64,000 nucleotides of DNA from a virus (IMGVR_UViG_3300023213_000338); one strand, 5' to 3'. Positions 8,159 through 57,483 are shown, counted from the stretch's first letter. Made by a program: numbers and translations. The notes: generated by a model from the sequence alone, not told the origin.

Positions 8159-8183
8159 ATTGCTTGGAAGGAGGTGAATTAAA

Positions 8184-9441: not shown

Positions 9442-10143
9442 GTGGCCGCTTTTACTGTATCCGAATTAATGAGTCAAATTGGGAGTACTGTAAATCAAGA
9501 CCCAACCGCTCCTCTATCTGGATCGACAGATTACAATCTGTGGATTTCTTTTATGGAGCGTGCTCAACGCGAGTGGCAAGAAGCTCATGATTGGGAAGAT
9601 ACAAGGAAAGATTTTTTTCCTAACATCACTCAAGTAACCGCAGCCTCTCTTGTTGTACTCACAATTCCACTCCCAAGCGATTTTTATAGAGTTGCAGGTC
9701 CTCCTGTTAATTGGAGTTTAAATAATATTCAGGGAGTTCCTTGGCCTGAAGTTCTTCCTGATCAACGACAATTATATTCTGTTTACGATAAATATTTCTA
9801 TGTTCTTGGAAATATGCAAAATGGATTTAATATGATATGGAATCCTGGGTCATTATTATCGGGTGCTTCGGTACAGATTCCATACTTTTCCGTAGTTGCT
9901 TCATTAGCCTCTTCTGGGCAAGTACTCGTGATGAGAGATCCTAGCTTCGTAGTTGATAGAACAGTAGCCTATATTTTGGAGTCTAGGTATGATCCACGTT
10001 TCCAAGAGATAGAAGTTAAGGCTAGAGAACGTCTATTAAATATGGTGGCAAACCATGATGCCATAAAATATGCTTCCTATAGTAATAAGAACTATGTCTT
10101 AAATCAAACAAGATTAAGTGGGTTTCGGTGGGGGAGGGATTAG
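9442..10143 (+). CDS. hypothetical virion protein
   Basis: 233 aa with a GTG start preceded by aaaggagg. It lies in the structural module with no recognisable motif. Confidence 0.5.
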   Translation: MAAFTVSELMSQIGSTVNQDPTAPLSGSTDYNLWISFMERAQREWQEAHDWEDTRKDFFPNITQVTAASLVVLTIPLPSDFYRVAGPPVNWSLNNIQGVPWPEVLPDQRQLYSVYDKYFYVLGNMQNGFNMIWNPGSLLSGASVQIPYFSVVASLASSGQVLVMRDPSFVVDRTVAYILESRYDPRFQEIEVKARERLLNMVANHDAIKYASYSNKNYVLNQTRLSGFRWGRD

Positions 10144-20600: not shown

Positions 20601-23400
20601 TGAAGACATGGCTTCTTCAGCGATAACTGCTTTAGCAAATGCAAGGAAAGCTTTAAAACCAAATCAATACGCATTCGTAGTAGACTTAGCAGAAGGAAAA
20701 GTACCCATGATTGGAGATAAAGTTGATATGGGCTTAGGAGAGGCGCAGGCACAAGAAATTCCTCCAGAGATTAAGAATTGGTTACAGGCGTGGGATACGG
20801 TTCGTAAAGATATTGCTACAAAAGCAAAAGCTATCGATCTTCAGACTCTTGATCCCGAAGGAGGGATGACAGTTCCTTGGGAGGGAAGAGATAATTATTT
20901 CCCTCATTATGTAACCAAAGAGCAAATGGATCAAATTCGAGCCAATCCAGATGCGACTCTTGATGGCATTATTAGAAGCGGAAAAGCAAGTAATGCTTTT
21001 GAGGCGAGGCTGTATTTAGATAAGCAGTTAGATGCTTTGAGAGCAAGAAGGTTTGGGAATTTGGAAATGCATAGAGGAGATATTGATATTCCTTATTTAA
21101 AAGATCCTCGTATTGCCGAAGATTATGTTAATGGTGCATATAAAAGAATAGCTTATGCCAACCAATTTGGAGCTTTTAATCAAGATGGTCAACGCTTGGT
21201 TGACAACATGATTGGGGAAGGTCGTCCATATGAGTCAAATGTTGCATCTGATCTTTTAAAGCAGGTTACGGGTTATCGTCCACAAAGCCCAGAGGAACAA
21301 GGAGTTGGAATGATTGGGAGAGCTGTTCGTGCAATCGAAACCCCTATGAAGTTAGGCTTAATTTCTCTTCACCACGGAGGACAGGTCGCTTCAATTGCTG
21401 CAAGGTCAGGCCTTGGGAACATGCTCAGAACTGCTCCTCAAGCAGTTTCTTCTTTACTATTTGACAACCAATCTCCTTTTGCTAGAAATGCGGTCTTGGA
21501 GCTTCATGACCTTGATAATAAATATGATCTTTATGGAGGATCTTCTAGACTTGATCAAAAGTTTCTCGGAGTGGTTGGTTTCGACAGAGTAATTAAAACG
21601 CTTCGTGCATGGGGAGCAGACGCTGCCCAAATGCAAGCTAAACAATTCGAAACAAAACTAGACGATTCGACAACAGCAAGATTTCTTAAAGGGGCAGGAC
21701 TTGATTATGATGCAATAAGACAAAGAGGATATCTTACTCAACCAGAAGTTAATCAATATGCAAGATCAGCCTTAAAAGATACAGCCCTTCTTTTTCAGCC
21801 AGGAGATTTACCAAAGCTTTGGAATACGCCAGTTGGAAGACTCATGACTATGTTTAAAACCTTTGGCTATAATCAGGCTACAAAGTTTGTTCCATACATA
21901 TTTAGAGAAGCAAGAGCAGGAAATGTAGCTCCTGCAATCGCATTCTTGACATTGGGAACAGGAATTGGTACAGGTGAACAGGTATTTCAAAATTTAATTC
22001 AAAATAAACCTGCTCCTACGATTGGGAAAACAATTGTTCAAGGTGCACTTAGAGGAGCTAATCCTGGAATTATAGGAAGTACAATTGCAAATACAATTAT
22101 GTACCCACAATATACAGCGTCTAATTTGGTTGGTTTAGTTGGTGGACCCGTAGCCTCTGATGTCATGAATGTAGGAGGATTAGTAAATAATGCTTTAAAT
22201 CCTCCTCAAGGACAAAATCAGGTTCAAATTAAAAACAATCAAATAACTGCAAATAGAGATTTAATTAGAAATGTTCCTTTGGTTGGCTCAACTTTAGCAA
22301 ACACTCTTTTCCCATATAAAAGTTATGTTGGTAATCGTCCATCAGATGTTCTTTCGGGAATGCTTACTGGACAACCAATAACTCATGGAACTGGAGATTT
22401 TGCTTATCAAACAACACCAACAGTTGCTGATTTACTAAGACCAAATCCTACAGTTATCGCTCAAACAAAACAAGCAACAACTATTGCTAAAAATGAAAAT
22501 TCAATTAAAGCTGGATTAGATGCTAATAGACAAACCCAACTTGATACTATCAATAACCTACTTCAGCTTCCTTACAATGGGGGAAATCAGCTTGATAAAA
22601 TTCATGCTTATGGGTTGTTAGCTAATGATGGGCAATTAGCCCTAGCTAAATCACAAATGGAGGCATCTAATGCAAAGACTACAAAAGATCCAGTTAATCC
22701 TTTATGGCAAATGGGACTTGTTAATCCACAAGCACAAAATATTGTTTTGCAATATAAGGCTTTATTGCCAGCAGACCAAAAAGCTTTTAAATCAGATCCT
22801 ACAAATCTAGCTATCTTAAACTCATATAATGCAGCGGAAACAGATTATTACAACAGTCTTCCTCCAACCAAACAAACCCAACAATTTGGTATTGTAGCTC
22901 CGTCTCCTTCAAAAGATGTACAAAACTTACTAAATCAGGCTAAGTCAACAAAAAACTATTCTTTATACAATGATTCAAAAGTGCAAGCATATTTTGCTCA
23001 ACTTGATTATTATGACAATTATATTAATGGATTGGCGGGATTACCCCCTGGAGCTGGAGGGACAACCAAAGGAGGGGGTGGAGGATATGGCTCTTCCAAT
23101 GGTTATATAGGCAATTTACCTAGTAACTATTTGGAACGCGCTCAACTTAGATCCTTTATATCTCAGGCTATGATGCTTGAAAACCAACCTGTCCCAATGA
23201 GATTTAAGGGAGTAGGAGGGTTTCAGCAACAACTCAGACAAAATCCTATTAATATAAATGCATTAACAGGAAATGTAGCATTAGCTCCAAGAGAAAGAGT
23301 TTCACCTGTTTTGGGACAACCAAAAGTTGGAGGAGTACAGCTTAGGCCATATCAGCAACCTACGAGTATGCATGGGCTTGGTATGGCAGCAGTAAGATAA
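17671..23400 (+). CDS. giant virion protein (1909 aa), Q-rich, with an internal ParB/Srx-like DGHHR motif; candidate internal/ejection or tape-measure-like protein
   Basis: Uninterrupted 5.7-kb ORF. DITDGHHRFPISR at about aa 395-407 resembles the ParB/sulfiredoxin-fold signature. The N-terminus is Q/G-rich and the C-terminus has a Gly-rich GGTTKGGGGGYGSSNGY patch. Confidence 0.6.
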   Translation: MDQFGNALNQTGKFFTGIGQDIGNTIENVASGLRDNLSNDWQGLSKSIQQPQIPSINNPVAQDATSSLLPMILQQGQYALQGKNVFGQQQPWSLSNPFAPAPRINAANQINTGNPVADFALKTAVGIPQSILNVPSDIQQGVGQTGQDIQSGKILQPQVAVSDIASIGLPIATLATLPMGGEVAEQAMQQGFGQALKEGALTGTKFGAGFGFGAGLQSGRNITNPQQYLQNLATNVGAGSLAGLAVGGTLGGASNLIGRGLQNMKDNEAVTLPDGLRVTREGINKFMDLKPQIDANYEQYANDPNIWQKLLPQDNFNDWYKSQEMNHTPGGPEALKDANGYFTFVNPFDMPPKVAESGDVMKGVAFDQFVSNNGVSDLPVVKQTYDENGNPNPLDITDGHHRFPISRSLGHQLVPVVMLDDKAPLLSDSFNQIKSGTPMRIGITSAQQANPQVAQFLDQGAKQMEAGDINGAIKTLQNVTDTTKGQLTDLLNDGATQVSRLETNTHGLYFGTPEPSYWLDLNSNNSNETLASLAKFAKDNQQDSFITGTKSQAGQNLGLSMNFGRPLSNEEVVAVQRIANAEGLGLTINQRTGETYSYNISQFDGLNPEEFKTKAEQAITALQAGGFKFSKSLDKYNLGVYTKDNYDGLISKSNRFGQVGAGLQPEGTTGGNISAEQPKGNAGSVLPQNAQLSPQETSIVKGRDKSIDIKDATAKVTEASKDVPVLQDVVDNATNAVNGVSQVALKDPQSLAQKVADDKGRTLENNPDTIRSTILAMDKDKAQQALDILKQDPTVQVVKEKNKVNPKTGYDAQHLQVKLPSGQTAEIQAHTPESLQTREIGHDQYKGEGTKGGIPPPPENIPTTNIFGSPQNYAVLTGLDKNRQEAGLPIPQQQWKNPIAGKGDMGDIPPFDKYGNQGKGAFQPGGAIPETQTPKPIGGIKALAKSLFVGERKVLADSPSTNANLFIKRLEDAANNHEDMASSAITALANARKALKPNQYAFVVDLAEGKVPMIGDKVDMGLGEAQAQEIPPEIKNWLQAWDTVRKDIATKAKAIDLQTLDPEGGMTVPWEGRDNYFPHYVTKEQMDQIRANPDATLDGIIRSGKASNAFEARLYLDKQLDALRARRFGNLEMHRGDIDIPYLKDPRIAEDYVNGAYKRIAYANQFGAFNQDGQRLVDNMIGEGRPYESNVASDLLKQVTGYRPQSPEEQGVGMIGRAVRAIETPMKLGLISLHHGGQVASIAARSGLGNMLRTAPQAVSSLLFDNQSPFARNAVLELHDLDNKYDLYGGSSRLDQKFLGVVGFDRVIKTLRAWGADAAQMQAKQFETKLDDSTTARFLKGAGLDYDAIRQRGYLTQPEVNQYARSALKDTALLFQPGDLPKLWNTPVGRLMTMFKTFGYNQATKFVPYIFREARAGNVAPAIAFLTLGTGIGTGEQVFQNLIQNKPAPTIGKTIVQGALRGANPGIIGSTIANTIMYPQYTASNLVGLVGGPVASDVMNVGGLVNNALNPPQGQNQVQIKNNQITANRDLIRNVPLVGSTLANTLFPYKSYVGNRPSDVLSGMLTGQPITHGTGDFAYQTTPTVADLLRPNPTVIAQTKQATTIAKNENSIKAGLDANRQTQLDTINNLLQLPYNGGNQLDKIHAYGLLANDGQLALAKSQMEASNAKTTKDPVNPLWQMGLVNPQAQNIVLQYKALLPADQKAFKSDPTNLAILNSYNAAETDYYNSLPPTKQTQQFGIVAPSPSKDVQNLLNQAKSTKNYSLYNDSKVQAYFAQLDYYDNYINGLAGLPPGAGGTTKGGGGGYGSSNGYIGNLPSNYLERAQLRSFISQAMMLENQPVPMRFKGVGGFQQQLRQNPININALTGNVALAPRERVSPVLGQPKVGGVQLRPYQQPTSMHGLGMAAVR

Positions 23401-33696: not shown

Positions 33697-34506
33697 TTAT
33701 TTTGTTAAATTCAAGAACGGTATCGGAGTTCCTGCTCCCAAATAAGTTGGTAGCTCTCCATTCCATTTTTCTATAGAGAGTTTTTGTAAAATCTCTGAAG
33801 TAAGCGTCTGTTGCAAAAGCTTTTGGGCATCTGCTTGACCCTGAGCTGTAGCAACTGTTGCTTGAGCGTTTGCTTGGGCTGTTTTAACTTCATTTTCAGC
33901 TGCAATAGCATGCTGGTTTGCAACTTGAGCGTCCTCAATCGCTTGATTAAATTTATCTGAGAAATTAATATTTGTTATTGACAGATTGTCTATCACAACA
34001 TAATATTGTTTCATTTTTGTTTGTAAAACATTTAAAGCCGTAGTTGCAACATTATCTCTGTTTTTTTGAACATCTAAAGCTACATATTTTGAGACGGCAG
34101 CTTTAATAGAGTCTTTTGTATTATTATCTAAAACATTTGTTGCAATTGCATCTATATCTCCTACCCGTTGATAGATTTTATTAACTTCTCCTGCGTTTAG
34201 ATGCCAATTAACAGAAACTTTAATATCAACCTGTTGGGAATCTGAAGTTCCTGCACTATCTGCTCCTGTTTCAGCGTAGGTGCTGATTTGAGTTCTGACT
34301 GGCATGATAACAACATTTTCTATAAGAGGAACTCTAAAATGAACTCCTTCTCCCAAGATTCTGTTTTCAACTCCTGTAGTATTATTAAATACAACTCCTC
34401 TTTCACCTGCTCCTACAACTACAATTGGGAAAAAGGCTATAATAATTATTATTGCTATAAAAAGAGCAATTCCTACGATAATTAATCGCTGTTTGTTTTG
34501 ATTCAT
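33697..34506 (-). CDS. SPFH/band-7 (stomatin/prohibitin/HflK-C-like) membrane protein
   Basis: An N-terminal TM helix precedes VVVGAGERGVVFNNTTGV...HFRVPLIENVVIMPVRTQ (the SPFH core). The C-terminus is an Ala/Gln-rich coiled coil. Confidence 0.7.
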   Translation of the reverse strand: MNQNKQRLIIVGIALFIAIIIIIAFFPIVVVGAGERGVVFNNTTGVENRILGEGVHFRVPLIENVVIMPVRTQISTYAETGADSAGTSDSQQVDIKVSVNWHLNAGEVNKIYQRVGDIDAIATNVLDNNTKDSIKAAVSKYVALDVQKNRDNVATTALNVLQTKMKQYYVVIDNLSITNINFSDKFNQAIEDAQVANQHAIAAENEVKTAQANAQATVATAQGQADAQKLLQQTLTSEILQKLSIEKWNGELPTYLGAGTPIPFLNLTK

Positions 34507-35192: not shown

Positions 35193-35840
35193 TCATATGA
35201 TTTTGTCAACCAAATTCAATTCCAAAGCCTCTTTTGCGGTTAACCAACAATCCTTTTTTTTAATAAGAGATAGAATTTTAGCTTTACTCATTCCAGACCG
35301 TAGAGCCAAAATGCTAACCAATTGTTCATTAAGCTTTTTAAGTTCTATGGTCTTATCTTCCGCATCCGAGGCAGTATCGATTCCAAAGTTAAAATTTGAA
35401 ACCTCGTGGATAAGAATTTTCGCATTTTGAGCTATATGTCTTTCATCTCCAGCTTGAAGAATAATCGCTCCCATTGAAGCTGCATAACCCTTAGTCTCAA
35501 TGGTAATATAGCCTCCCTGTTTTTTATATTCTGACAATGCATCATAAACAGCAAGGCCATCAAAAACATTTCCTCCTGGAGAGGTTAAAATAAGCCTAAG
35601 TTTTTTAATTTCTCTATTTAGAAGCTCATATATCTGAAGAAAAACTTCTTCTCCTGAACCTTGTCCTATTTCATCGTCAAGATAAATAATTCCCCTAGAC
35701 AGAAGTTGCATTCTCAGAAATCCAAAATAATCTAGTTGAAGATTGGGAATAGTTTGAATAGAACGAATTGAGGGACGATTCCTTTTAAGTATTTTACTAT
35801 GAATGATTTTGTCTGCATCTGAGTGTATTCCTTTTCTCAT
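35193..35840 (-). CDS. ClpP-family (S14) serine peptidase
   Basis: LILTSPGGNVFDGLAVYDAL, GYAASMGAIIL (catalytic Ser) and AKILIHEVS (catalytic His) align with ClpP. Confidence 0.75.
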   Translation of the reverse strand: MRKGIHSDADKIIHSKILKRNRPSIRSIQTIPNLQLDYFGFLRMQLLSRGIIYLDDEIGQGSGEEVFLQIYELLNREIKKLRLILTSPGGNVFDGLAVYDALSEYKKQGGYITIETKGYAASMGAIILQAGDERHIAQNAKILIHEVSNFNFGIDTASDAEDKTIELKKLNEQLVSILALRSGMSKAKILSLIKKKDCWLTAKEALELNLVDKII

Positions 35841-42016: not shown

Positions 42017-42087
42017 TGCCGAGTCGACTAACGGTAAGTCAATTGCCCTTGGAGCAGTTTATCTACGTTCGAGTCGTAGCGCGGCAA
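42017..42087 (+). tRNA. tRNA-Gln (anticodon UUG), CCA not encoded
   Basis: Manual cloverleaf: acceptor tgccgag/cgcggca (one A-G mismatch), U8, D arm gact-aacggta-agtc, anticodon arm attgc-ccTTGga-gcagt, variable loop ttat, T arm ctacg-TTCGAGT-cgtag, discriminator A. Position 33 is C rather than U. Confidence 0.5.
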
Positions 42088-42095
42088 CTTAAAAT

Positions 42096-42242: not shown

Positions 42243-42316
42243 GCGACTGTAGTTAATTGGCTTAACGTTTCCCTTCCAAGGAAAGGAAGAGAGTCCGATT
42301 CTCTCTAGTCGCTCCA
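42243..42316 (+). tRNA. tRNA-Gly (anticodon UCC) with encoded CCA
   Basis: Manual cloverleaf: acceptor gcgactg/tagtcgc (one GU), D arm gtta-attggct-taac, anticodon arm tttcc-cTTCCaa-ggaaa (perfect stem, U33, A37), variable loop ggaa, T arm gagag-tccgatt-ctctc, discriminator T, CCA. Confidence 0.55.
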
Positions 42317-42991: not shown

Positions 42992-43486
42992 CTACTGTTT
43001 AGAGATCAGTTGTTCGTAGGCTAGCTTGGCCTTTTCTTTGTAGGAAAATTCATTTTGTTTGCGTTTTTCCAACTCCGCCTGTGTGAGGAAACGGAAATAC
43101 AAACTCCAAGCTTTACGCCAAAAGATCATATCATGATGGTGTCCGCTTCTAACCAGCCAATGTGCCAGTTCGTGAAGCAAGAGTCCTTTTTCTACGGCTC
43201 CCTCTTCTATTCTCATGATAATATTGGGTTTTCTGCCGTAGGCTCGTGACCAAAATATTGATCGGTTTCTAAGAGAACTCTTCCAGTTGCTTGCTCTATA
43301 AGTTGTCCCCGAGGCTTTATATCGAACGCCTCTCCATTTGATCTTAGGAGCTTTGCTTCTTTTTTCAGAAGCAAGAACCTCAGCGATCAGTTTAGTTGCC
43401 CATTCTGGTTGATTCATGTCGTCTCCGATACTGTTTGCCCCTCCACCAAGATCTTCTTTTCCTATAGCAATATGCTTCGCAAACAT
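42992..43486 (-). CDS. HExxH zinc metallopeptidase-like protein (SprT/YgjP-like)
   Basis: LLLHELAHWLVRSGHHHD carries the HExxH motif with a downstream His cluster. Confidence 0.35.
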   Translation of the reverse strand: MFAKHIAIGKEDLGGGANSIGDDMNQPEWATKLIAEVLASEKRSKAPKIKWRGVRYKASGTTYRASNWKSSLRNRSIFWSRAYGRKPNIIMRIEEGAVEKGLLLHELAHWLVRSGHHHDMIFWRKAWSLYFRFLTQAELEKRKQNEFSYKEKAKLAYEQLISKQ

Positions 43487-46413: not shown

Positions 46414-46534
46414 TAAATCTTGCTCGAGCTAAACAATTTTTGTGAATATTACATTTTTCTCTTTGTAAATCAAAAACTTTCTCAAAATTCTCTTTAAACT
46501 TCTTTTCTATAGCTTTAGGTAAAGTGTTTTTCAT
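46319..46534 (-). CDS. hypothetical small protein
   Basis: 71-aa ORF whose stop overlaps the next gene. Confidence 0.3.
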   Translation of the reverse strand: MKNTLPKAIEKKFKENFEKVFDLQREKCNIHKNCLARARFSAPIRAEDFDSIIDFLSYVYKRGREDERNER

Positions 46535-47133
46535 TTATTTGGAAATATACTTTTTCCGTTCCAAGGACAATCTTTTAAACATTCTTTTTTGTGTAGCTTT
46601 TTCCAACCATCCTCTGTTGTAGGAATATCACCTAAGACTGGTTTTAAAAGTTTTAAACGAATTCCTACTTCTTCCTTTGGTTTATTTTTCTTTATATAAT
46701 TTATTCTTGCCCTGATTGGTTCAGTAAGCCATTCATATAAAATTGTCTCGTGAATATGCCACCAATAATCAGTTTGATCTGAGTCAATATTTTTTGCACT
46801 TGCAAGATCTATTTGACGAAAAACCATTCCTTGAACATTTGTTCCTGAAAAATCTGTTCTCTCAAGATGTGTTCCCCAAAAAATAACATCTCTAAGATCT
46901 GCTCCTGAAAAATCTACTCCTTCCATGTTTGCTCCTCGAAAATTTGCTCCTCTAAGATTTGCTTTTTGAAGATTTGCTCCCATAAGATCTGTTGCTACAA
47001 GATTTGCTCTCCAAAGTTTTACTCCTCTTTTAACTGCTTCTTCAAGAGTATCTTTGATAGTATTGTTTTCTTTTTCATATTCAAACAATATTTCTCTCGT
47101 TATCCATTCTTTGATTTGTATTTTACTTTTCAT
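46531..47133 (-). CDS. pentapeptide-repeat protein (Qnr/MfpA-like DNA-mimic fold)
   Basis: ANLVATDLMGANLQKANLRGANFRGANMEGVDFSGADLRDVIFWGTHLERTDFSGTNVQGMVF forms tandem A(D/N)LxX pentapeptides. Confidence 0.65.
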   Translation of the reverse strand: MKSKIQIKEWITREILFEYEKENNTIKDTLEEAVKRGVKLWRANLVATDLMGANLQKANLRGANFRGANMEGVDFSGADLRDVIFWGTHLERTDFSGTNVQGMVFRQIDLASAKNIDSDQTDYWWHIHETILYEWLTEPIRARINYIKKNKPKEEVGIRLKLLKPVLGDIPTTEDGWKKLHKKECLKDCPWNGKSIFPNK

Positions 47134-49011: not shown

Positions 49012-49040
49012 ATTATACAACAATTAATATTTTTTGTCAA
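49012..49040 (-). promoter_or_regulatory. minus-strand sigma70-type promoter (TTGACA-N17-TATAAT)
   Basis: Reverse complement reads aTTGACAaaaaatattaattgttgTATAATa. Confidence 0.5.
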
Positions 49041-49143
49041 TATAAAATTTGCTTTTTTTAAACAAAAGTATTATTCTTTTTATACCTATTATCTGTTTTA
49101 ATAGGAGACGAGGCGGAATTTGAATGCCACCTCGTATCCTAGA

Positions 49144-50625
49144 TTATCTGTGAATTAACGATCGCATCATTTCGATCATTTTTAAAGGTAACTGTTCAAT
49201 TTTAGGAACTGCGATATATGTGGGATAAAATTGCTTCAAATAATCGCTTGTTAGCCCTACTCCAATTGCAATAAGAGTCGCGTTTTTTTCTTTTTCAATT
49301 TTGTGGATTAGGGTTCGCATTGTGCTTGAATTAACTCCTATTCCGCCATCAGTCATCATAAGAACAATGTTATCATCGTATTTATTAATATTTTTATAAG
49401 TTACATCTAAGGCAAGAAACTCATTGTTTCCCCCCCCACGCATTTTACGATAAACAGAAAGATCGGAAATTACTTGTGTCGTATGGTTGAATCTGATATA
49501 TTTTATTTCAAACTTTAATCTTTTCATAGCTTCGTTAATTAAAAAAGATGCAATATATGTTTGAGCATGAAAATATCCTTCCATGCTTCCGCTTTCATCC
49601 AGAACAAAAGTTATTGAGTAATGAGGCGTATCTGGATTTGTGCGTTTGCTAAAAAGCCTAGTTTCATCAGAAACTGTAACTTTGTATGCGTTTTTAGATA
49701 GTAACCTTCCCTTTTTATGTGCTCCTGTGTAACGAACTGAAGCTTTTTCTTTAAGAATATCTGCTAGGCGTTGTGTTAGGGTATGAATATATCCTCCCAA
49801 AAGAGACCTTAATTCTTCATCTGAGGGAATGTCTGTTAAATATTCTTCCATTTTTCCCTCAAACGACCTATCGGGTTTTCCCTCCCTGAGTTCTTCTTCA
49901 ATGGATTTATTACCATCCGCTTTGCCCTCTCTTTGTTCTTTCTCTAATTGTTTATCGGCTTCGTCTAGGAAGGGTTTTGCGTGTCTATAGATATATTGGT
50001 CAACCAATTGTTTAAGAACTTCTGTTGAAGAGGCATTGAGTATCTTCCCAACACAGGCTTGAATATCTGAATCTGCGGAACTTAAAGCTTTTTTAACTTC
50101 TGTAGAGTTATAGTCTCGTAGATCTCTGGCTAGATAATAAAGATTATTTCTACTCCACTCAACTATTTTCCCAGAATAAAATCTTTGTAAATTTGTGCTA
50201 TCCAGAAATTCCATTAATTTAGTTCGTTCTAACATTTTAAGTTTAGCCAAAGAGATTCTTCCTATTAAGCCCCAAGTAGAACAATGAGCCAGAGCTTGTA
50301 TTGCAAAACCTCTATATTGTTGCATAAGCAAATATTCAATTCTCATATCTTCAAATTGGTTATAAACATATTGCATCGAGGGATGTTTTATTAAGTTTGG
50401 GGTATCTTTTTGAATTTTATCTGTGAATAAAATATGTCCAACTTCATGGATAATGATTCCTTTTGCTACCAATGCGGGCGCAAAGACGAGATCGGTGGGA
50501 TTATATGTAACTTCCCTTTTGGCGACGTTCGTAACCCACTTTTTCCCTTCTTTGAATGTAATTTTATTCTCGTTGGATAAAGCTGTAATAAGAGCTTCAA
50601 GATAAGATCGAGTTGTCCTAAACAT
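49144..50625 (-). CDS. von Willebrand factor A (vWA) domain protein with N-terminal HExxH metallopeptidase-like motif; last gene of the Ubl/AAA operon
   Basis: TFVLDESGSMEG is the MIDAS DxSxS motif. IIHEVGHILF is an N-terminal HExxH. It is co-oriented with the MoxR gene with a 15-nt gap. Confidence 0.65.
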   Translation of the reverse strand: MFRTTRSYLEALITALSNENKITFKEGKKWVTNVAKREVTYNPTDLVFAPALVAKGIIIHEVGHILFTDKIQKDTPNLIKHPSMQYVYNQFEDMRIEYLLMQQYRGFAIQALAHCSTWGLIGRISLAKLKMLERTKLMEFLDSTNLQRFYSGKIVEWSRNNLYYLARDLRDYNSTEVKKALSSADSDIQACVGKILNASSTEVLKQLVDQYIYRHAKPFLDEADKQLEKEQREGKADGNKSIEEELREGKPDRSFEGKMEEYLTDIPSDEELRSLLGGYIHTLTQRLADILKEKASVRYTGAHKKGRLLSKNAYKVTVSDETRLFSKRTNPDTPHYSITFVLDESGSMEGYFHAQTYIASFLINEAMKRLKFEIKYIRFNHTTQVISDLSVYRKMRGGGNNEFLALDVTYKNINKYDDNIVLMMTDGGIGVNSSTMRTLIHKIEKEKNATLIAIGVGLTSDYLKQFYPTYIAVPKIEQLPLKMIEMMRSLIHR

Positions 50626-50640
50626 CTGTCAGTTCCTCCA

Positions 50641-51939
50641 TTAAAGTGATTTTTTTTGTGTTGGATTAGAAGTTTTTTTATTAGAGGTAGTAATTTTTTT
50701 GGATGCTTTTTGGATGATTTTTTCGATTTGTTGATATTCTTTGATTTGGTCTTGGAGTTCTTCATTTTTTTTTCTTTCGGCTTCGATTTCTGTTTTCTGA
50801 CCTTCAATTACCTTCTTTATCTCGTCTGCCGTTAAATTAAGCTTCTCCAAAGTTTTTTCTAATTCGTCTATAGCTTTTAATTGCGTAGCCAATTCTCTTT
50901 CTTTATCTAAAATCAATCCTTCTGCTTTTTCTGCACGATGTTTCAATGTCTCAAATTCTTTTTTGGTAGTAATTATAGGAGTTGTTCCTTTATCTTCAGC
51001 TTCAGCTTGTTTATTAATGGCTAAGAAAAAATCTAATAAGGCTTTTTGTTCGTCTTTGTTATTGGTTTTTTTAACAACAGTTGTACTCCAAGCATTTTGT
51101 GGCTTCATGCCAGAGGAGATAAGTTTAGCCGTATTAAGGAGGCTACGAGTGGAGACATATAGGAATATCTTTTGTTCCAAATAGTCTTTTCTAGCCATCG
51201 TAGCTGTTATTACCAATATATTTGCCATCTCCTCAGAGATTTTTGTACGGCTAACCAACAATTCCTTTTCTTTGTCTGGAGCTAACGTATCAACTGATAT
51301 TATGATTGGGAAACGATCCAAAAAAGCCTTATTCATTGATTTTGTGCCTTCATAATCGGGGTTACAAGTTGCAAAAACTCTAAAATTTGGATGAGGATAA
51401 ATAACTTCTCCGTTAGGAAGCGTTATTCTCCTATCTTCGTCTAAAAGTCCATGAAGAATAAACAAGCAATCTGGGGTGGTTGCATTAATCTCATCTATAA
51501 CCAAAATTGCTCCGCGTTGCATGGCATTGGTAATAACTCCGTGTTCGTAATATGTCTCATTGCCTTTATCGGTCGCTCGGACGGACTTGCTCCCTATGAG
51601 CTCATCTGGGGTCGAAAACCCATGCATGTTTACACGCACATAGGGTTGTTGTCTGAGATATGCCAATCGTCTAACGGCTGAAGTTTTGGCTACCCCCGTC
51701 TCTCCAATTAATAAAACAGGTAGATTCTCCTTTATCCCCAAAGCAATTGCATCTTTGTCGTTTATTGGTAGAATAACCTCAAGTGCTTCTTTTGGAACTA
51801 ACGGATCGTTTTGCTCGTTGATTTTTTCCAACTCAATAGAACCAAATAGGAAAGAGTTTTCTTTTACTACCGCCAACGCTTTTGGAGCTTCTGGTTCTGG
51901 AGTAATAGAATCTGTTTTTTTAATTTTAGTTTTTTTCAT
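50641..51939 (-). CDS. MoxR-family AAA+ ATPase with C-terminal coiled coil
   Basis: LLIGETGVAKT is Walker A, AILVIDEIN is Walker B, FATCNP is sensor 1, and FLDRF carries the arginine finger. This is the MoxR/RavA arrangement paired with a vWA protein. Confidence 0.8.
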   Translation of the reverse strand: MKKTKIKKTDSITPEPEAPKALAVVKENSFLFGSIELEKINEQNDPLVPKEALEVILPINDKDAIALGIKENLPVLLIGETGVAKTSAVRRLAYLRQQPYVRVNMHGFSTPDELIGSKSVRATDKGNETYYEHGVITNAMQRGAILVIDEINATTPDCLFILHGLLDEDRRITLPNGEVIYPHPNFRVFATCNPDYEGTKSMNKAFLDRFPIIISVDTLAPDKEKELLVSRTKISEEMANILVITATMARKDYLEQKIFLYVSTRSLLNTAKLISSGMKPQNAWSTTVVKKTNNKDEQKALLDFFLAINKQAEAEDKGTTPIITTKKEFETLKHRAEKAEGLILDKERELATQLKAIDELEKTLEKLNLTADEIKKVIEGQKTEIEAERKKNEELQDQIKEYQQIEKIIQKASKKITTSNKKTSNPTQKKSL

Positions 51940-53060
51940 TTTTTATCTCCAATAACTTTATCGATGTTGATTTCCCTATCTTCATCTAAGAGTGAGTAGT
52001 CTTGCTTCATTGAAGTCCCATTACTAACAGAAGAACTTGGTTTATCAGATAAAGCAGAGAAGCTTTCTTTTTCTTGTTTCTCTTTTTTAATTGCATCGAC
52101 AAAATATTTCATTGAGATTGTTTTAGCCTTATCATAAGCACATTTTCTTGCAGCCATTAAGATTGTATTTTTAATATTGCCACCACTCAAAGGAATTTTA
52201 GCAAGTATTTCAAAGTCAACGTCTTTTCCAATAGGAGCTTTCTTAGGTATTAGACGTTCCCAGATTAGCTTTCTTTCAGACTCATTTGGAAAAGGAAATT
52301 CGATTTTGGTTGTGATACGACGTTCTAAAGCAGGATCAAGTTTGCCTAAGCGATTAGTGGTAAGAATAACGATTCCTTCATAGCGTTCAATTTCGGAAAG
52401 CAAGATATTAACTTGAGAAGATACGATTGGTCCAACAGCATCTCGATTGTACAAAAGCGAATCACACTCGTCAATCAAGATTACATCTTTCTTGTTTTCA
52501 GGTGAGCTTTCGGCACTTATAAAAGCCTTAGTAATATTCTTTTCAGTTTCTCCCCAAAGGTAGGAACTCATTGTATTCATGTCCAGTTTCTTAAGACCTA
52601 GCCCTAATTCATTAGCAATCGCTTCAGCCATAAGACTTTTCCCCGTTCCCGAAGACCCATAGAAAAGAAGCGTCATTCCCATTCCCTTTTCCAAAACTTC
52701 ATTGAAGCCCCATTCCTCAAAGATCAGTTGCTTGTTTTGTTCCTGAGCAATTGTAGCTTGAATCTCCTTTTTCTTTTCTGGGCTAAGTACTACGCTTTCA
52801 ATGTTAAGGTTCTTGATAGGATTTTCTTTAATAAAAACAATTGACTTATCTTTTTCAATTCTCATTTTATATCCCATTGGAGAAACAATTTCTTCAACCG
52901 CTTCTTTTGCCAATTCAACATTGAAGTATGGATAAAGATCAGTTAGCTTAAATTCTTTCGGGTGGGTATGAATAATTTCTTGAATTGCACTTTTTAAAGT
53001 AGTCTGATTAAGATGGGTAAAAACTGGAAGTGGCTTAGGTTGATTAATATTATTTGGCAT
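51936..53060 (-). CDS. classical-clade AAA ATPase (Cdc48/FtsH/proteasomal-ATPase-like unfoldase module)
   Basis: LLFYGSSGTGKSLMA is Walker A, VILIDECDSL is Walker B, and VILTTNRLGKLDPALERR is the second region of homology. Confidence 0.8.
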   Translation of the reverse strand: MPNNINQPKPLPVFTHLNQTTLKSAIQEIIHTHPKEFKLTDLYPYFNVELAKEAVEEIVSPMGYKMRIEKDKSIVFIKENPIKNLNIESVVLSPEKKKEIQATIAQEQNKQLIFEEWGFNEVLEKGMGMTLLFYGSSGTGKSLMAEAIANELGLGLKKLDMNTMSSYLWGETEKNITKAFISAESSPENKKDVILIDECDSLLYNRDAVGPIVSSQVNILLSEIERYEGIVILTTNRLGKLDPALERRITTKIEFPFPNESERKLIWERLIPKKAPIGKDVDFEILAKIPLSGGNIKNTILMAARKCAYDKAKTISMKYFVDAIKKEKQEKESFSALSDKPSSSVSNGTSMKQDYSLLDEDREINIDKVIGDKK

Positions 53061-53061
53061 G

Positions 53062-53388
53062 TTAGTTAACTATCCTTTCTTTTTTCTTTTCCTGTTTTTC
53101 TTTTAACGCCTGCTCGATATCAAATTCAGGCTCTTTCGGTTCTGGAGTTGGATTGGTTTTTGGTTTTACTCCCATTGCCTTATATATTTCATTCATAATA
53201 TCTTTAATATCGATTCCCATTTTGGCCAATTCATCGCCAGCTGCAATATATAGAGCTTGAGATAGGATTTGCTGAAACTCTTTACTTTCTCTTAAACCCT
53301 CGACTAATAAATCTATAATTTCAATTTCTTTACCTTGTAATTCAAACCTAACTCCTTTTGCCTCATGCTCCAAATATAGTTTTGCCAT
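53062..53388 (-). CDS. small acidic/helical protein of unknown function within the Ubl operon
   Basis: 108-aa ORF lying 1 nt from the AAA gene start. Confidence 0.45.
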   Translation of the reverse strand: MAKLYLEHEAKGVRFELQGKEIEIIDLLVEGLRESKEFQQILSQALYIAAGDELAKMGIDIKDIMNEIYKAMGVKPKTNPTPEPKEPEFDIEQALKEKQEKKKERIVN

Positions 53389-53400: not shown

Positions 53401-54000
53401 TTATCCCTCTTCTCCTATAAAAAGGTCTTTTAAACCCTTCTTAATCGCCCTACCAACGTCTTTTATGTCCTCGCTGGTAAATAATTCGTCGCCTCGGACT
53501 TTTTCTTTGATTTCTTTTATAATCTCTTCTTTCATTTCTTTGTCTCCAAGATCAACTTCGAATTCAACTTGATCAAACTCATATCGGAAAGGAGCGAATA
53601 AATCTACCCTACATAAATTATCACCCTTATGGTTTGTAACAAGAGAGATTATATAATTATGCGAATCCATTTCTGAATCCCATTCTTCAATTGTTGCAGT
53701 ATCTATGCCAGAAAAGAAAGCTCCCATTCTGTTATGTGAATGCCACCAAAGCTTCCAATCACTCATTTTTTCTCCCTTGGACAATAAATCGCTAAAGAAT
53801 TTTCCAAGATCAGTTCTGTTTAAAACAGTGTTTGCTCCGCTAACTTTTTGTTTAAAGATTCGTATATCCTCAACATAAAAGATTGTTTCCCCATTGATAT
53901 ATTCCGATCTGACTTTGCCAAGCCCAGAGATTTCAAGTTCCGTGTTCTCAACGTAGTGTCTGAGTTTCTGGTACAGTTTGATTGGGATAATAACTTTCAT
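53401..54000 (-). CDS. JAB/MPN (JAMM) metallopeptidase, predicted Ubl-processing/deconjugating enzyme
   Basis: WWHSHNRMGAFFSGID is an exact H-x-H-x7-S-x2-D JAMM motif. An upstream conserved Glu is present in TELEISGLG. Confidence 0.8.
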   Translation of the reverse strand: MKVIIPIKLYQKLRHYVENTELEISGLGKVRSEYINGETIFYVEDIRIFKQKVSGANTVLNRTDLGKFFSDLLSKGEKMSDWKLWWHSHNRMGAFFSGIDTATIEEWDSEMDSHNYIISLVTNHKGDNLCRVDLFAPFRYEFDQVEFEVDLGDKEMKEEIIKEIKEKVRGDELFTSEDIKDVGRAIKKGLKDLFIGEEG

Positions 54001-54003: not shown

Positions 54004-54804
54004 TTAAGATTGCCTAGCTTCTAACGATCGGATAGCGTCTTCTAAGGCTTGTAATCTTTGATGAATTGCATTTGTAAAATTAATATCTCTAGTATAAGGA
54101 TAAGGAACATTAAGTTCAGCAAGAAGCATATTTCTTTTCGCTCTCATCGTGTCTAATCCATTTAATTGATTTTGATAGGTTGCTTGTGTGTATTGAGCTT
54201 CCTGTATCCCAGAAGGAGCTGTTTGTGTTCTTGGTTGTGGTTGATAAGATGCTTGTCTTATTCCCCGATCGTACTGATCAAAATCAAATCCTCTTGGGCA
54301 TGGAGTTGCTCCTTTTAACCATTCATCCCAATTTGTATAACCAGCATCCTCGCTTTTTACGCTTGCAATATAATATAAACAAGTGTCAACGAGTTTTTGA
54401 AGATTTTGAGCTACCCATAATTTCTCAATCTCTAACTTTATTCCATATTTTCCACTCCCCCAACAAGGTTTTGTGTCACTAATTGTCGGATTATCTAAAT
54501 TATAGTAGCGTTGTGAAATATTTAAAATTCTTATCATTTCAGTTGAGTTTTTAAAATTTATTCTTATTTGGTATTGACCAGCAACTTTGTTTCTTCTATT
54601 TACTTTAATATATATCGGTTGGGTTGTAATCGTGATTCTATTCTGACTGTCTACAGAAACATTTTTTATCATGTATTGTTTTTTAATCTTTATTAGTAAG
54701 TCCCTGTCTTTCCAAGGAATGATTTTCTGTTTGAGGTTATTAATCCCTCGCTCAATGGTTGCGAGGGGATTAAGTAACATTAATTTTCTTAAAGAAAGTG
54801 CCAT
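54004..54804 (-). CDS. candidate E2-like (UBC-fold) conjugating protein; unknown fold otherwise
   Basis: 266-aa ORF located between the Ubl and JAB genes. YYNLDNPTISDTKPCWGSG places a Cys about 9 residues after an NP, reminiscent of HPN...C. A helix (WVAQNLQKLVDTCLYYIAS) follows. This is a contextual inference only. Confidence 0.35.
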   Translation of the reverse strand: MALSLRKLMLLNPLATIERGINNLKQKIIPWKDRDLLIKIKKQYMIKNVSVDSQNRITITTQPIYIKVNRRNKVAGQYQIRINFKNSTEMIRILNISQRYYNLDNPTISDTKPCWGSGKYGIKLEIEKLWVAQNLQKLVDTCLYYIASVKSEDAGYTNWDEWLKGATPCPRGFDFDQYDRGIRQASYQPQPRTQTAPSGIQEAQYTQATYQNQLNGLDTMRAKRNMLLAELNVPYPYTRDINFTNAIHQRLQALEDAIRSLEARQS

Positions 54805-55044
54805 TTATTTTTCCCCTCCTTCGATTTGTCTTGTCAGGATAACCTGATCCCCATCTTTAAGTTTATGTTCCAAAACATTACCTGTTAATTCAGACCCATT
54901 AAGCTGAACGGTCTCATTTGATTTTCTACTTATTCCCATTGCTATTAATGCTTCACCCACTGTTTGTGCTCCAGTAAGAGGAATTTGTTTTGCATCGCCT
55001 CCCATTTTTCCAACTGTGACAAATATATTTTTCTTTCTAGCCAT
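54805..55044 (-). CDS. ThiS/MoaD-like ubiquitin-like beta-grasp protein with C-terminal GG followed by an EK tail
   Basis: 79 aa ending ...LKDGDQVILTRQIEGGEK. It aligns with ThiS ...VQDGDQILLFQVIAGG. The two extra residues after GG imply peptidase processing. Confidence 0.65.
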   Translation of the reverse strand: MARKKNIFVTVGKMGGDAKQIPLTGAQTVGEALIAMGISRKSNETVQLNGSELTGNVLEHKLKDGDQVILTRQIEGGEK

Positions 55045-55058: not shown

Positions 55059-55748
55059 TTAGATTAATGAATAACTTGGAATATCAAGCGTAATCTCGCT
55101 TCTTATTTTCTCTTTTGTGGCAAAACGTTTGATAATGTTTGTTACAAGACCAGCACAAATTAGAGTGTTATAGGCAATTGCCCGAGCCGTGCATTTTTCA
55201 CCACTTGGCTTAATTTTAGAAAACAGTTTATTATGATAATTTTCCATTTGTTCAAAATCTTGTGTATTGATAGTATAGATTCTAATAAGCTCAGCTCCCA
55301 TACGAGCATCAATATAAAGCTTTAATGTTTTTAACGTTTCTTTGCTTCTAACAATCTGTCCCCAGATTTCCTTGCGTTGCAAGATTGAATCTACGGCAGA
55401 GATAATTACGGTTGGAGCTTTATATTCTTTAGATAAGATGTATTCTTGAAAAGAGGTTATAACTCCAGTAATTGAAGCTCCAGAGAGGGAATGAATGATG
55501 TGTTTTAAAGAATTGACTTTTAAATCCTCTATCTGGGGGGAATACAATTGAGAGGGGGCATTGTGTTTTTCTGTTTTATCATAGTCTATAGCTGTTAAAT
55601 TGGAGCATCCCATTTTTGAAAGAGATAAAGCTGTCCAAGAACCTATTCCGCCTACGCCTATTAATGTTATTGGAAAGTTTAATTGTGAAGGTTTGACAAT
55701 ATCCAATTGCCTAAGAAAAACTTGTCGGTCATCAATGTTCTGTCTCAT
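55059..55748 (-). CDS. minimal E1-like adenylyltransferase (ThiF/MoeB/UBA fold)
   Basis: LDIVKPSQLNFPITLIGVGGIGSWTALSLSKMGCSNLTAIDYDKTEKHNAPSQL has the Rossmann GxGxxG and the D.D.VE.SN..RQ signature. ISAVDS is the Mg/ATP Asp. It is 229 aa with no rhodanese domain. Confidence 0.65.
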   Translation of the reverse strand: MRQNIDDRQVFLRQLDIVKPSQLNFPITLIGVGGIGSWTALSLSKMGCSNLTAIDYDKTEKHNAPSQLYSPQIEDLKVNSLKHIIHSLSGASITGVITSFQEYILSKEYKAPTVIISAVDSILQRKEIWGQIVRSKETLKTLKLYIDARMGAELIRIYTINTQDFEQMENYHNKLFSKIKPSGEKCTARAIAYNTLICAGLVTNIIKRFATKEKIRSEITLDIPSYSLI

Positions 55749-55759: not shown

Positions 55760-55788
55760 ATTATACAATATTGTAGAGGAAAAATCAA
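55760..55788 (-). promoter_or_regulatory. minus-strand sigma70-type promoter (TTGATT-N17-TATAAT) driving the E1-Ubl-JAB-AAA operon
   Basis: Reverse complement reads cTTGATTtttcctctacaatattgTATAATa, 12 nt upstream of the E1 start codon. Confidence 0.55.
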
Positions 55789-57454: not shown

Positions 57455-57483
57455 ATTATACAATAATGATCAATTATTGTCAA
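57455..57483 (-). promoter_or_regulatory. minus-strand sigma70-type promoter (TTGACA-N17-TATAAT)
   Basis: Reverse complement reads aTTGACAataattgatcattattgTATAATa. Confidence 0.5.

What the first reader, a model, noticed from the sequence alone, without database searches (positions are those of the whole stretch)
49144..53060. Two different ATPase classes (classical AAA and MoxR) plus a vWA protein with HExxH appended to the Ubl cassette
MoxR-vWA pairs are chaperone-like remodellers. The classical AAA protein has the SRH of Cdc48/FtsH/proteasomal ATPases. Their co-transcription with a Ubl tagging system is reminiscent of a tag-then-unfold logic, as in Pup-Mpa or ubiquitin-Cdc48. A ClpP-like peptidase is also encoded at 35193-35840, although in a separate transcription unit.
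Basis: partly seen in the sequence, partly recalled or inferred. Interest (0 to 1): 0.6.

Follow-up and report, generated by a model that had tools for sequence, protein, structure and literature searches.

The report
Phage ubiquitin-like operon with extra ATPases
A phage operon joins a ubiquitin-like protein-tagging cassette to a Cdc48/proteasome-type AAA ATPase and a CobS/CobT-type ATPase-adaptor pair, but comparison with about 170 related loci shows the AAA is only an occasional companion of the cassette and the pair is a separate module that landed next to it.

Summary
Window 49144-53060 (minus strand) holds three intact genes:
- a classical AAA ATPase (374 aa);
- a MoxR/CobS-like ATPase (432 aa);
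- a CobT-like vWA protein (493 aa) with an invariant HExxH and a complete MIDAS site.

They sit tightly packed behind E1, Ubl, an E2-like protein, JAB and a 108-aa protein. The eight genes lie between a promoter-like site and a strong hairpin.

The "tag-then-unfold" reading is only partly supported.
- **Core cassette.** E1-Ubl-E2-like-JAB is a widespread phage cassette (150 distinct loci, including crAss001). Over 90% of these loci have no ATPase beside it.
- **AAA.** It follows JAB in 2 of the 6 other distinct loci that share the window's gene order. Unrelated AAA+ genes (ClpA/B-like) take the same position in other phages (enrichment near the cassette p≈0.006). Most members of this AAA family sit in phages with no Ubl genes nearby.
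- **MoxR-vWA pair.** It is autonomous: all 7 nearest relatives keep the pair and have no Ubl genes within the flanking DNA read (up to 10 kb per side).
- **HExxH domain.** It is the M48-like N-domain normal for CobT.
- **ClpP-family gene.** It is unlinked.

One lead remains: the vWA domain's best structural matches are midasin MIDAS domains, which bind Ubl domains.

The parts
55760..55788 (-). sigma-70-like promoter candidate (TTGATT-17-TATAAT, 10/12), 12 nt upstream of the E1 start
   Evidence: This is a consensus match only.
55059..55748 (-). E1-like adenylating enzyme (ThiF family, 229 aa)
   Evidence: PF00899 5.1e-14. PADLOC E1-E2 models match. 207 homologues were found. Invariant R13, Q14, the G31xG33xxG36 motif, D55, D57, K77, D120 and C186 in A2.
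54805..55044 (-). Ubl (79 aa), ending ...QIEGG-EK
   Evidence: Weak ThiS and Ub-Mut7C hits. The family HMM finds 107 distinct members, 76 of which end in GG plus 0-5 residues.
54004..54804 (-). E2-like protein (266 aa) with invariant Cys114
   Evidence: Present in 113 of 162 E1 loci. The A4 core consensus is YDHPH..x..PCxGx, with G76, C114 and G116 invariant. One member hits UQ_con at 0.0079 and the profile touches the UBC9 HPN-Cys region only at E=1.4. The fold could not be modelled.
53401..54000 (-). JAB/JAMM peptidase (199 aa) with HSHNRMGAFFSGID
   Evidence: Prok-JAB weak hit at 85-107. The family HMM finds it in 125 of 162 E1 loci. The motif was read from the sequence.
53062..53388 (-). 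108-aa protein of unknown function between JAB and AAA
   Evidence: No hit in Pfam, PHROGs, PADLOC or NCBIfam. No homologue in any fetched locus. L099 has an unrelated 100-aa gene in the same position.
51936..53060 (-). Classical-clade AAA ATPase (374 aa): wHTH-like N-domain (about 17-80) plus a single AAA module
   Evidence: Orthologues follow JAB in L099 (45% identity) and L100 (48%, N-domain included).
50641..51939 (-). MoxR/CobS-like AAA+ ATPase (432 aa) with a K/E-rich C-terminal tail
   Evidence: AAA_5 3e-30, CbbQ_C 2.9e-11, phrog_249 2.7e-45. 66% identical to the L184 gene. CobS-like matches in 555 phage records.
49144..50625 (-). CobT-architecture adaptor (493 aa): M48-like HExxH N-domain, acidic linker, vWA/MIDAS domain
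   Evidence: The CobT_N fold description comes from bioRxiv 10.64898/2026.07.21.739949.
49095..49143 (-). Stable hairpin directly after the vWA stop codon; likely 3' end of the unit
   Evidence: dG -21.6 kcal/mol, z -6.84, 0 of 200 shuffles fold as well. It has no clear U-tract.

Best explanation
The block is a composite operon built from three units with different evolutionary histories.

**1. Core.** A four-gene phage Ubl-conjugation cassette.
- JAB trims the Ubl after its diglycine.
- E1 adenylates the Ubl.
- The E2-like protein carries it on Cys114 and passes it to targets that are still unknown.

**2. Accessory.** A single-ring classical AAA ATPase, together with the 108-aa gene. This is an optional partner of the cassette in this phage lineage. 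It most likely remodels or extracts tagged proteins, or the conjugation enzymes themselves. It is not part of a protease.

**3. Separate module.** A CobS/CobT-type motor-adaptor pair. By analogy with CobST and NorQD, a MoxR hexamer holds the vWA protein, whose MIDAS site and M48-like HExxH domain engage a client. This pair moves between phages as a two-gene unit. Here it has been placed at the 3' end of the operon, so it shares expression timing with the cassette rather than a demonstrated mechanism.

**Shown:** the domain identities, the intact catalytic motifs, the gene order and the distribution across loci.

**Inferred:** every biochemical step, the targets, and any physical coupling.
For: **Cassette.**
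- Among 162 E1 loci, JAB is present in 125 and the E2-like protein and the Ubl in 113 each. The gene order varies.
- JAB+E1 is also present in crAss001 gp77/gp76.
- Most Ubls end in GG plus a short tail.

**AAA as accessory.**
- It follows JAB in the window, L099 and L100, while the surrounding genes differ.
- It is absent in L101, L004, L009 and L016, which have the same cassette order.
- 9 of 17 AAA+ hits lie within 1.5 kb of the cassette, against 22.5% expected from the DNA surveyed (binomial p=0.006).
- ClpA/B-like ATPases are adjacent in L006, L111 and L128.

**AAA family mostly independent of Ubl.**
- L001-3, L084-98 and L187-189 contain no E1 or JAB.
- Only two contig lengths are shared between the top-120 AAA list and the top-120 E1 list.

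**MoxR-vWA as an autonomous pair.**
- L184-186 and L190-193 all keep the pair. It is adjacent in five, and 2 to 4 small genes intervene in L184 and L186. None has a cassette gene.
- Vibrio phage ICP2 gp41/gp42 is the same pair, with HECYH.

**Architecture of the vWA protein.**
- The model shows a helix, three strands, the HExxH helix and then a helical bundle, followed by the vWA domain. This matches the published CobT_N/CobT_C description.

**Operon boundaries:**
Against: **Points suggesting the pair's placement may not be accidental.**
- L100 has a different AAA_5 ATPase plus a DUF2201 (metallopeptidase+VWA) protein directly upstream of E1.
- L021 and L130 have similar pairs 2 to 6 kb from the cassette.
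- The midasin-like MIDAS fold is known to bind Ubl domains.

**Points weakening an unfoldase role for the AAA family.**
- Pore-loop 1 in most family members, including L099 and L100, is SEPGG, with no aromatic residue. Only the window protein has YLWGETEK.

**Limits of the data.**
- Flanks were limited to 10 kb, so genome-wide co-occurrence was not measured.
- The loci are not phylogenetically independent, so the p-value is rough.
- There are no transcript data.
Confidence: 0.55

Rival explanations
1. Integrated tag-then-unfold machine. The Ubl marks proteins, the classical AAA and/or the MoxR-vWA complex recognises the tag, and the tagged protein is unfolded, extracted or handed to a protease. 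The models are ubiquitin-Cdc48, Pup-Mpa and Rea1-UBL.
For: - All eight genes sit in one tightly packed unit.
- The AAA is conserved after JAB in L099 and L100.
- Unrelated AAA+ genes, including Clp-type, are recruited beside the cassette.
- Analogous ATPase plus metallopeptidase-VWA pairs lie near the cassette in L100, L021 and L130.
- The vWA fold is closest to midasin MIDAS domains solved in complex with UBL domains.
- The window AAA has an aromatic pore loop, YLWGETEK.
Against: - 142 of 150 distinct cassette loci have no AAA+ gene within 1.5 kb, including 4 of the 6 other distinct loci with the window's gene order.
- All 7 closest MoxR-vWA pairs and 20 AAA-family loci lack cassette genes.
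- No known Ubl-receptor domain is present. The AAA N-domain is a small helix-helix-helix-hairpin unit with pLDDT about 60-70.
- There is no HbYX tail.
- The ClpP-family gene is in another unit.
- The pore loop is non-aromatic in L099 and L100.
Confidence: 0.17
2. Pure juxtaposition. The AAA, the MoxR-vWA pair and the Ubl cassette are three independent early or accessory modules that happen to be packed into one leftward transcription unit. The AAA works on something else, for example replication or anti-defence factors, as in the roughly 40-kb phages where it stands alone.
For: - The AAA family is found mostly in 37-58 kb phages, next to replication or recombination genes (NinG, RecT, ParB_N, Rep_O) and without Ubl genes.
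- It has no conserved partner gene.
- MoxR-vWA is independent.
- Related ~100-kb phages share many genes in shuffled order.
Against: - The block E1-Ubl-E2-like-JAB-(small gene)-AAA is kept in three phages whose flanking genes differ.
- AAA+ genes are enriched next to the cassette.
- The AAA N-domain is shared only by the two cassette-linked copies, window and L100, and not by stand-alone homologues such as P0098.
Confidence: 0.23
3. Auxiliary metabolic genes. The MoxR and vWA proteins are true CobS and CobT that boost host cobalt chelatase for B12 synthesis, as database labels ('porphyrin biosynthesis', 'cobaltochelatase CobT subunit') imply.
For: - Labels of phrog_249, phrog_5298 and phrog_17276.
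- TIGR01650 CobS is the best NCBIfam hit.
- The PDB CobT match and the shared CobT architecture.
Against: - The CobS score is 79 bits against a cut-off of 558.
- No Pfam match at all (E<=0.001), and so none to CobN, in the seven window ORFs of 352-1909 aa that were scanned.
- The HExxH motif is invariant in the phage proteins.
- Identity to cyanophage CobS is 24-29%.
- The pair occurs in many phages that have no chelatase context.
Confidence: 0.04

Closest known systems
CobS-CobT motor-adaptor of aerobic cobaltochelatase, and the phage 'CobS/CobT' pairs (e.g. Vibrio phage ICP2 gp42/gp41)
   Same: - MoxR-type AAA_5 ATPase with a CbbQ_C lid.
- The partner has an M48-like N-domain (helix, three strands, then a helical bundle), an acidic linker and a vWA domain with MIDAS.
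- The two genes are adjacent.
- HExxH is also present in ICP2 gp41.

   Different: - Far below the CobS equivalog cut-off (79 versus 558 bits).
- No CobN effector in the window.
- The gene order here is ATPase then adaptor, whereas in ICP2 it is adaptor then ATPase.
- The ATPase carries a roughly 120-aa K/E-rich tail.
- The client is unknown.
NorQ-NorD, CbbQ-CbbO and other MoxR-vWA chaperone pairs
   Different: There is no nitric-oxide reductase or Rubisco context. The HExxH M48-like N-domain is not part of those adaptors as far as I know (own knowledge, not tested here).
Rea1/Midasin (MDN1) MIDAS domain binding the UBL domains of Rsa4, Ytm1 and NLE1
   Different: - Midasin is a single giant eukaryotic polypeptide acting on pre-60S particles.
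- Sequence identity is only 16-17%.
- No evidence here that the phage MIDAS site touches the phage Ubl.
- The closest relatives of the pair have no Ubl gene nearby.
Cdc48/p97, proteasomal Rpt/PAN and Mpa (tag-dependent unfoldases)
   Same: Classical AAA clade: Walker A/B, sensor-1 Asn, and a second region of homology with two Arg residues. These are the top structural matches. The gene sits next to a Ubl system.
   Different: - One AAA module only, 374 aa.
- No double-psi-barrel or coiled-coil/OB N-domain.
- No HbYX C-terminus.
- NCBIfam scores are 43-75 bits against cut-offs of 500-800.
IetA (ATPase of the Ietas anti-phage system) and phrog_3757 phage AAA proteins
   Same: These are the best family-level matches over nearly the whole protein (PADLOC IetA 5.2e-31, phrog_3757 3.8e-43).
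   Different: NCBIfam IteA scores 86 bits against a cut-off of 510. There is no IetS-type serine protease partner in the operon. The gene is phage-encoded rather than in a defence island.
Bacterial E1-E2-JAB-Ubl operons (Iyer, Burroughs and Aravind 2006; Bil systems)
   Same: The same four activities occur in one cassette. The Ubl has a C-terminal diglycine, the JAMM motif is intact, and a Cys-bearing UBC-like core is present (Bil description from PMC11601596).
   Different: - Phage-encoded.
- The E1 is a minimal 229-aa ThiF-type protein, not the IAD-AAD-CYS BilD type.
- The E2-like family matches no Prok-E2 Pfam model.
- No PADLOC hit for the Ubl, the E2-like protein or JAB.

Membership tests
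Classical AAA clade (PF00004) | Walker A, Walker B, sensor-1 Asn, and a second region of homology with arginine fingers | tested here: met
   PF00004 4.6e-25 over 131-256. G135, G138, G140, K141, D197, E198, N236, R247 and R248 are invariant in 32 sequences. Foldseek top hits are Rpt and p97 at E~5e-16.
Cdc48/p97 | Tandem D1-D2 AAA modules, a double-psi-barrel N-domain, and the family score | tested here: not met
   The 374-aa protein has a single AAA module. TIGR01243 scores 74.8 bits against a cut-off of 802.65. The N-domain is modelled as three helices plus a hairpin.
Proteasome-activating ATPases (PAN/Rpt/Mpa) | Coiled-coil/OB N-domain, C-terminal HbYX (or GQYL) docking motif, and a partner 20S protease | tested here: not met
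   Scores are 42-66 bits against cut-offs of 500-750. The C-terminus reads ...DKVIGDKK. No 20S genes were found. The only peptidase of this kind in the window is a ClpP-family gene 13 kb away.
IetA / IteA anti-phage ATPase | Equivalog score and an adjacent IetS serine protease | tested here: not met
   NF042959 scores 86.4 bits against a cut-off of 510. No protease of that type is present in the operon. Similarity is at superfamily level only (PADLOC 5.2e-31).
MoxR AAA+ family | AAA_5-type module with a CbbQ/NorQ-type C-terminal lid and an adjacent vWA-domain partner gene | tested here: met
   PF07728 3e-30, PF08406 2.9e-11, PF20030 2.6e-9. The vWA gene starts 15 bp downstream. The pairing is kept in 7 of 7 relatives.
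True cobaltochelatase CobS/CobT | Equivalog-level similarity and a CobN effector subunit | tested here: not met
   TIGR01650 scores 79.2 bits against a cut-off of 558.55. None of the seven window ORFs of 352-1909 aa scanned matches any Pfam family at E<=0.001, so no CobN was seen. The host genome was not available.
CobT architecture (CobT_N M48-like domain + linker + CobT_C vWA) | N-terminal helix, three-stranded sheet and helical bundle; acidic linker; vWA with an N-terminal extension and MIDAS | tested here: met
   PF11775 scores 27.1 bits (cut-off 21). PDB CobT 9uka matches at 6.7e-9. Model elements are H6-20, E23-41, H51-67 and onward, a disordered stretch at 234-256, and vWA at 336-492. 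A direct superposition on CobT_N was not possible.
Active zincin metallopeptidase | HExxH on a helix plus a third ligand, and demonstrated proteolysis | tested here: inconclusive
   H60, E61, H64, N89, E92 and D93 are invariant in 9 of 9 homologues. HExxH lies on helix 51-67 and E92/D93 on helix 84-104. Activity cannot be tested with these tools. hhalign against the L100 DUF2201 protein aligned only the HExxH region (probability 7.7%).
Ubl conjugation system (E1-E2-DUB-Ubl) | Adenylating E1; Ubl with a C-terminal Gly-Gly; E2 with a catalytic Cys in a UBC fold; JAMM peptidase | tested here: inconclusive
   E1, Ubl and JAB features are met. The E2-like protein has an invariant Cys in an HPH..PCxG motif but only marginal UQ_con and UBC9 matches.

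The most novel reading that the evidence does not exclude
The phage runs a miniature 'tag and pull' system. The Ubl cassette marks host or phage proteins. Two different AAA+ motors then act on the mark. One is a single-ring Cdc48-like ATPase with a lineage-specific N-domain. The other is a MoxR hexamer whose midasin-like MIDAS adaptor grips the Ubl as Rea1 grips Rsa4 or Ytm1, with the adaptor's intact M48-like HExxH domain clipping the client. The independent recruitment of a different ATPase plus metallopeptidase-VWA pair next to E1 in L100, and of Clp-type ATPases in other phages, would then reflect repeated selection for coupling tagging to mechanical remodelling.
Probability: 0.15. Interest if true: 0.8.

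Novelty: new variant of a known kind. Interest (0 to 1): 0.45.

Why it matters
Bacterial Ubl systems (Bil, CBASS Cap2/Cap3, Bub) are described as host defences. In my literature searches I found no description of phage-encoded E1-Ubl-E2-like-JAB cassettes, and none of ATPases attached to them.

If the AAA, or the midasin-like MoxR-vWA pair, really reads the tag, this would be a prokaryotic-virus counterpart of ubiquitin-Cdc48 or Rea1-UBL. It would also provide a tractable eight-gene system for studying how tagging became coupled to mechanical remodelling.

If they do not read the tag, the result still has value:
- It corrects the 'cobalamin biosynthesis' labels on phage CobS/CobT pairs.
- It shows that the HExxH-vWA protein has a standard CobT architecture with a conserved, probably active, metallopeptidase site.
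- It defines a widespread four-gene phage Ubl cassette with a new E2-like family.

Tried and rejected
**Searches that found nothing.**
- A DNA search of the 6.6-kb operon against 50,697 phage records gave no match.
- A single-sequence scan of IMG/VR with the AAA found no relatives. An alignment was needed.
- The exact-match contig look-up failed for the window's own proteins, although identical clusters exist on a 99,862-bp JGI contig.
- The 108-aa protein has no homologue anywhere I looked and no conserved counterpart next to AAA homologues.

**Ideas checked and dropped.**
- I first read crAss001 gp78/gp77 as an ATPase plus metallopeptidase-VWA pair. Pfam showed that gp77 is the JAB peptidase and gp78 has no ATPase domain.
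- I tested whether the window vWA protein is a DUF2201 family member like the L100 gene. There is no Pfam hit, and hhalign aligns only 34 columns around HExxH. The two are analogous, not demonstrably orthologous.
- Terminase or packaging role for the ATPases: no support in any library.
- ClpP-family gene as the proteolytic partner: it is in a different unit, no docking motif is visible on the AAA, and its neighbours are HTH, ParB-like and SPFH genes.

**Limits reached.**
- The fold searches of whole models were dominated by the AAA and vWA domains. The AAA N-domain and the HExxH domain could therefore not be searched on their own.

Full report
**1. What is there**

Window 55748-49144 on the minus strand carries eight co-directional genes:
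- E1/ThiF (229 aa);
- a 79-aa Ubl ending QIEGG-EK;
- a 266-aa protein;
- JAB (199 aa, HSHNRMGAFFSGID);
- a 108-aa protein;
- a classical AAA ATPase (374 aa);
- a MoxR-type ATPase (432 aa);
- a vWA protein (493 aa).

The gaps between genes are -4 to 15 bp. Pfam, PHROGs, PADLOC and NCBIfam agree on the domain calls.

A 10/12 sigma-70-like site precedes E1. No minus-strand terminator is predicted inside the block. A -21.6 kcal/mol hairpin (z = -6.8) follows the vWA stop, and a perfect TTGACA-17-TATAAT then opens the next gene. One transcription unit is therefore plausible, though not shown.

The window resembles no sequenced phage at the DNA level. Identical proteins sit on a 99,862-bp JGI contig.

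**2. The three genes of the finding**

*The AAA ATPase.*
- It is a genuine classical-clade member. Walker A/B, sensor-1 N236 and R247/R248 are invariant across 32 homologues.
- Its model (pLDDT 81.6) matches proteasomal Rpt subunits and p97 D1 best.
- It has a single AAA module and no HbYX tail. It scores far below the cut-offs for CDC48, PAN, Mpa, FtsH and IteA.
- Residues about 17-80 are modelled, at modest confidence, as three helices plus a beta-hairpin.
- This N-domain is shared with the L100 orthologue. It is not convincingly shared with stand-alone homologues such as P0098.

*The MoxR gene.* It belongs to the phage 'CobS' family: phrog_249, and 555 phage records at 24-34% identity.

*The vWA protein.* It has the CobT architecture.
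- PDB CobT matches at 6.7e-9.
- The model shows a helix, a three-stranded sheet, the helix carrying HExxH, a helical bundle, a disordered acidic linker and a vWA domain.
- A 2026 preprint describes the same layout for true CobT and likens CobT_N to M48C peptidases.
- H60/E61/H64, N89/E92/D93 and the MIDAS residues are invariant in all nine homologues.
- Vibrio phage ICP2 gp41 ('CobT') also has HECYH and sits beside gp42 ('CobS').

The HExxH motif is therefore a family trait that the phage proteins keep intact, not an unusual addition.

**3. Is the neighbourhood conserved?**

I collected 80 IMG/VR loci and 80 metagenome loci around E1 homologues, 15 IMG/VR loci around AAA homologues, and further contigs through exact-protein look-ups. 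I called ORFs and searched them with iterated family HMMs.

*(a) The cassette.* E1, JAB, the Ubl and the 266-aa protein form a widespread cassette.
- Of 162 E1 loci, many of them truncated, 125 have JAB and 113 each have the Ubl and the 266-aa protein. Several gene orders occur.
- The 266-aa family has a core motif YDHPH...PCxG with an invariant Cys114. This resembles the UBC HPN...C signature. Only marginal UQ_con and UBC9 matches back this up.
- 76 of 107 distinct Ubls end in GG plus 0-5 residues.
- crAss001 gp77/gp76 are JAB and E1 of this kind.

*(b) The AAA.*
- Among the seven distinct loci with the window's order (E1-Ubl-E2-like-JAB), three carry the AAA directly after JAB: the window, L099 and L100. 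L101, L004, L009 and L016 do not.
- The genes flanking this block differ between the window, L099 and L100.
- Over all 150 distinct E1 loci, 8 have some AAA+ gene within 1.5 kb of the cassette. Of the 67 loci with at least 3 kb on both sides, 5 do.
- 9 of 17 AAA+ hits fall in that near zone, against 22.5% expected (p=0.006). This figure is rough, because the loci are related to each other and short contigs favour near hits.
- The neighbours are not all orthologous. L006, L111 and L128 carry a ClpA/B-like protein (843 aa in L006).
- Conversely, the window's AAA family occurs in 20 fetched phage loci without any cassette gene. It typically sits among replication or recombination genes of roughly 40-kb phages.
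- Only two contig lengths are shared by the top-120 AAA and top-120 E1 lists.

*(c) The MoxR-vWA pair.*
- All seven nearest relatives keep the pair: L184 (66% and 42% identity), L185, L186 and L190-193.
- None of them has an E1, Ubl, E2-like, JAB or classical AAA gene within the flanking DNA read (up to 10 kb per side).
- However, L100 has a different AAA_5 ATPase plus a DUF2201_N/DUF2201 protein (metallopeptidase plus VWA) directly upstream of E1. L021 and L130 have similar pairs 2-6 kb away.

**4. Interpretation**

The best-supported picture is a composite operon:
- a core conjugation cassette;
- an optional, lineage-specific AAA partner, which probably acts on conjugates or on the enzymes themselves;
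- an autonomous CobS/CobT-type motor-adaptor pair that was placed at the 3' end.

This is met for most relatives.

A degradation step has no support. The ClpP-family gene is real (PF00574 8.9e-30). But it lies 13 kb away, among HTH, ParB-like and SPFH/Band 7 genes.

Against a simple unfoldase role, pore-loop 1 is SEPGG in most of the family, including L099 and L100. The window copy alone reads YLWGETEK.

**5. A lead worth keeping**

This probably reflects the common origin of MoxR-associated vWA domains. Even so, it gives a concrete and testable way in which a MoxR-vWA machine could read a Ubl.

**6. Comparison and novelty**

Each component belongs to a known kind:
- the classical AAA is closest to phrog_3757 and IetA-like proteins;
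- the pair is a phage CobS/CobT-like MoxR-vWA pair;
- the cassette is an E1-E2-JAB-Ubl operon of the type predicted by Iyer et al. 2006.

None is a member of Cdc48, PAN/Mpa, IteA or true CobS by the curated cut-offs.

Full-text searches found no description of phage-encoded cassettes of this type, or of ATPases attached to them. The library is incomplete, however.

I rate the arrangement a new variant of a known kind. Interest is moderate, because the functional link that made the finding attractive is supported only weakly for the AAA and is mostly contradicted for the MoxR-vWA pair.

Noticed in passing
window 33697-34506 and 35193-35840 (minus strand); L004 7553-8329; L100 5322-6119; L188 12824-13627: An SPFH/Band 7 gene (PF01145 1.9e-30) lies about 0.7 kb from the ClpP-family gene on the same strand. 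This is reminiscent of stomatin-NfeD/STOPP protease pairs. Band 7 homologues also recur close to the Ubl cassette (L004, L100) and close to an AAA homologue (L188/L189).
   Followed up: partly
window 54004-54804 (minus strand); alignment A4: The 266-aa protein defines a large phage family (120 ORFs in the fetched loci; 79 cluster representatives in the 1.8-billion-protein library). It has a UBC-like HPH...PCxG core and an invariant Cys, and matches no Pfam model. Lengths range from about 200 to 700 aa, some with Cys-rich C-terminal extensions (L072, L075, L021).
   Followed up: partly
L100 13392-13991; L101 14076-14690; L004 14206-14784; L016 18822-19460; L006 19189-19917: A second, shorter ThiF-like gene (about 190-240 aa) follows the cassette in several relatives, but is absent from the window.
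   Followed up: no
window 52533-52562 region (AAA residues 167-176): Pore-loop 1 of the window AAA reads SYLWGETEK, which is canonical-like. Nearly all close family members, including the cassette-linked L099 and L100 copies, read S(E/V)PGGAER, with no aromatic residue.
   Followed up: partly
L006/L105 11257-13788; L111 3618-4521; L128 1347-2411: A ClpA/ClpB-like AAA+ gene (843 aa in L006; cut off by the contig end in L111 and L128; Walker A VLVGEAGVGKTAIVEGLA) lies 300-600 bp downstream of E1 in an Ubl-E2-like-JAB-E1 cassette of a different phage lineage.
   Followed up: partly
L182 (crAss001 NC_049977) 4977-9460: crAss001 gp77 ('metalloprotease domain') is a JAB peptidase. gp76 ('thiamine biosynthesis protein ThiF') is an E1 of this phage cassette family with a roughly 160-aa N-terminal extension. 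The database labels are misleading.
   Followed up: partly
window 46531-47133 (minus strand): A 200-aa pentapeptide-repeat protein (PF00805 1.4e-32) lies downstream of the operon.
   Followed up: no
window 42992-43486 (minus strand); 42017-42088 and 42243-42316: A 164-aa protein with an HELAHW motif has no family match. Two tRNA genes (Gln-TTG, Gly-TCC) separate the leftward early region from the block that contains ClpP, Band 7 and ParB.
   Followed up: no
window 49012-49040 and 57455-57483 (minus strand): Two perfect 12/12 TTGACA-17-TATAAT sites are present. This suggests a host with standard sigma-70 promoters rather than a Bacteroidota host, despite the E1 similarity to crAss-like phages.
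   Followed up: no
window 17671-23400 (plus strand): A 1909-aa ORF has no Pfam or PHROG match. Several other large plus-strand ORFs (697, 650 and 450 aa) are likewise unassigned or carry only a spurious hit.
   Followed up: no
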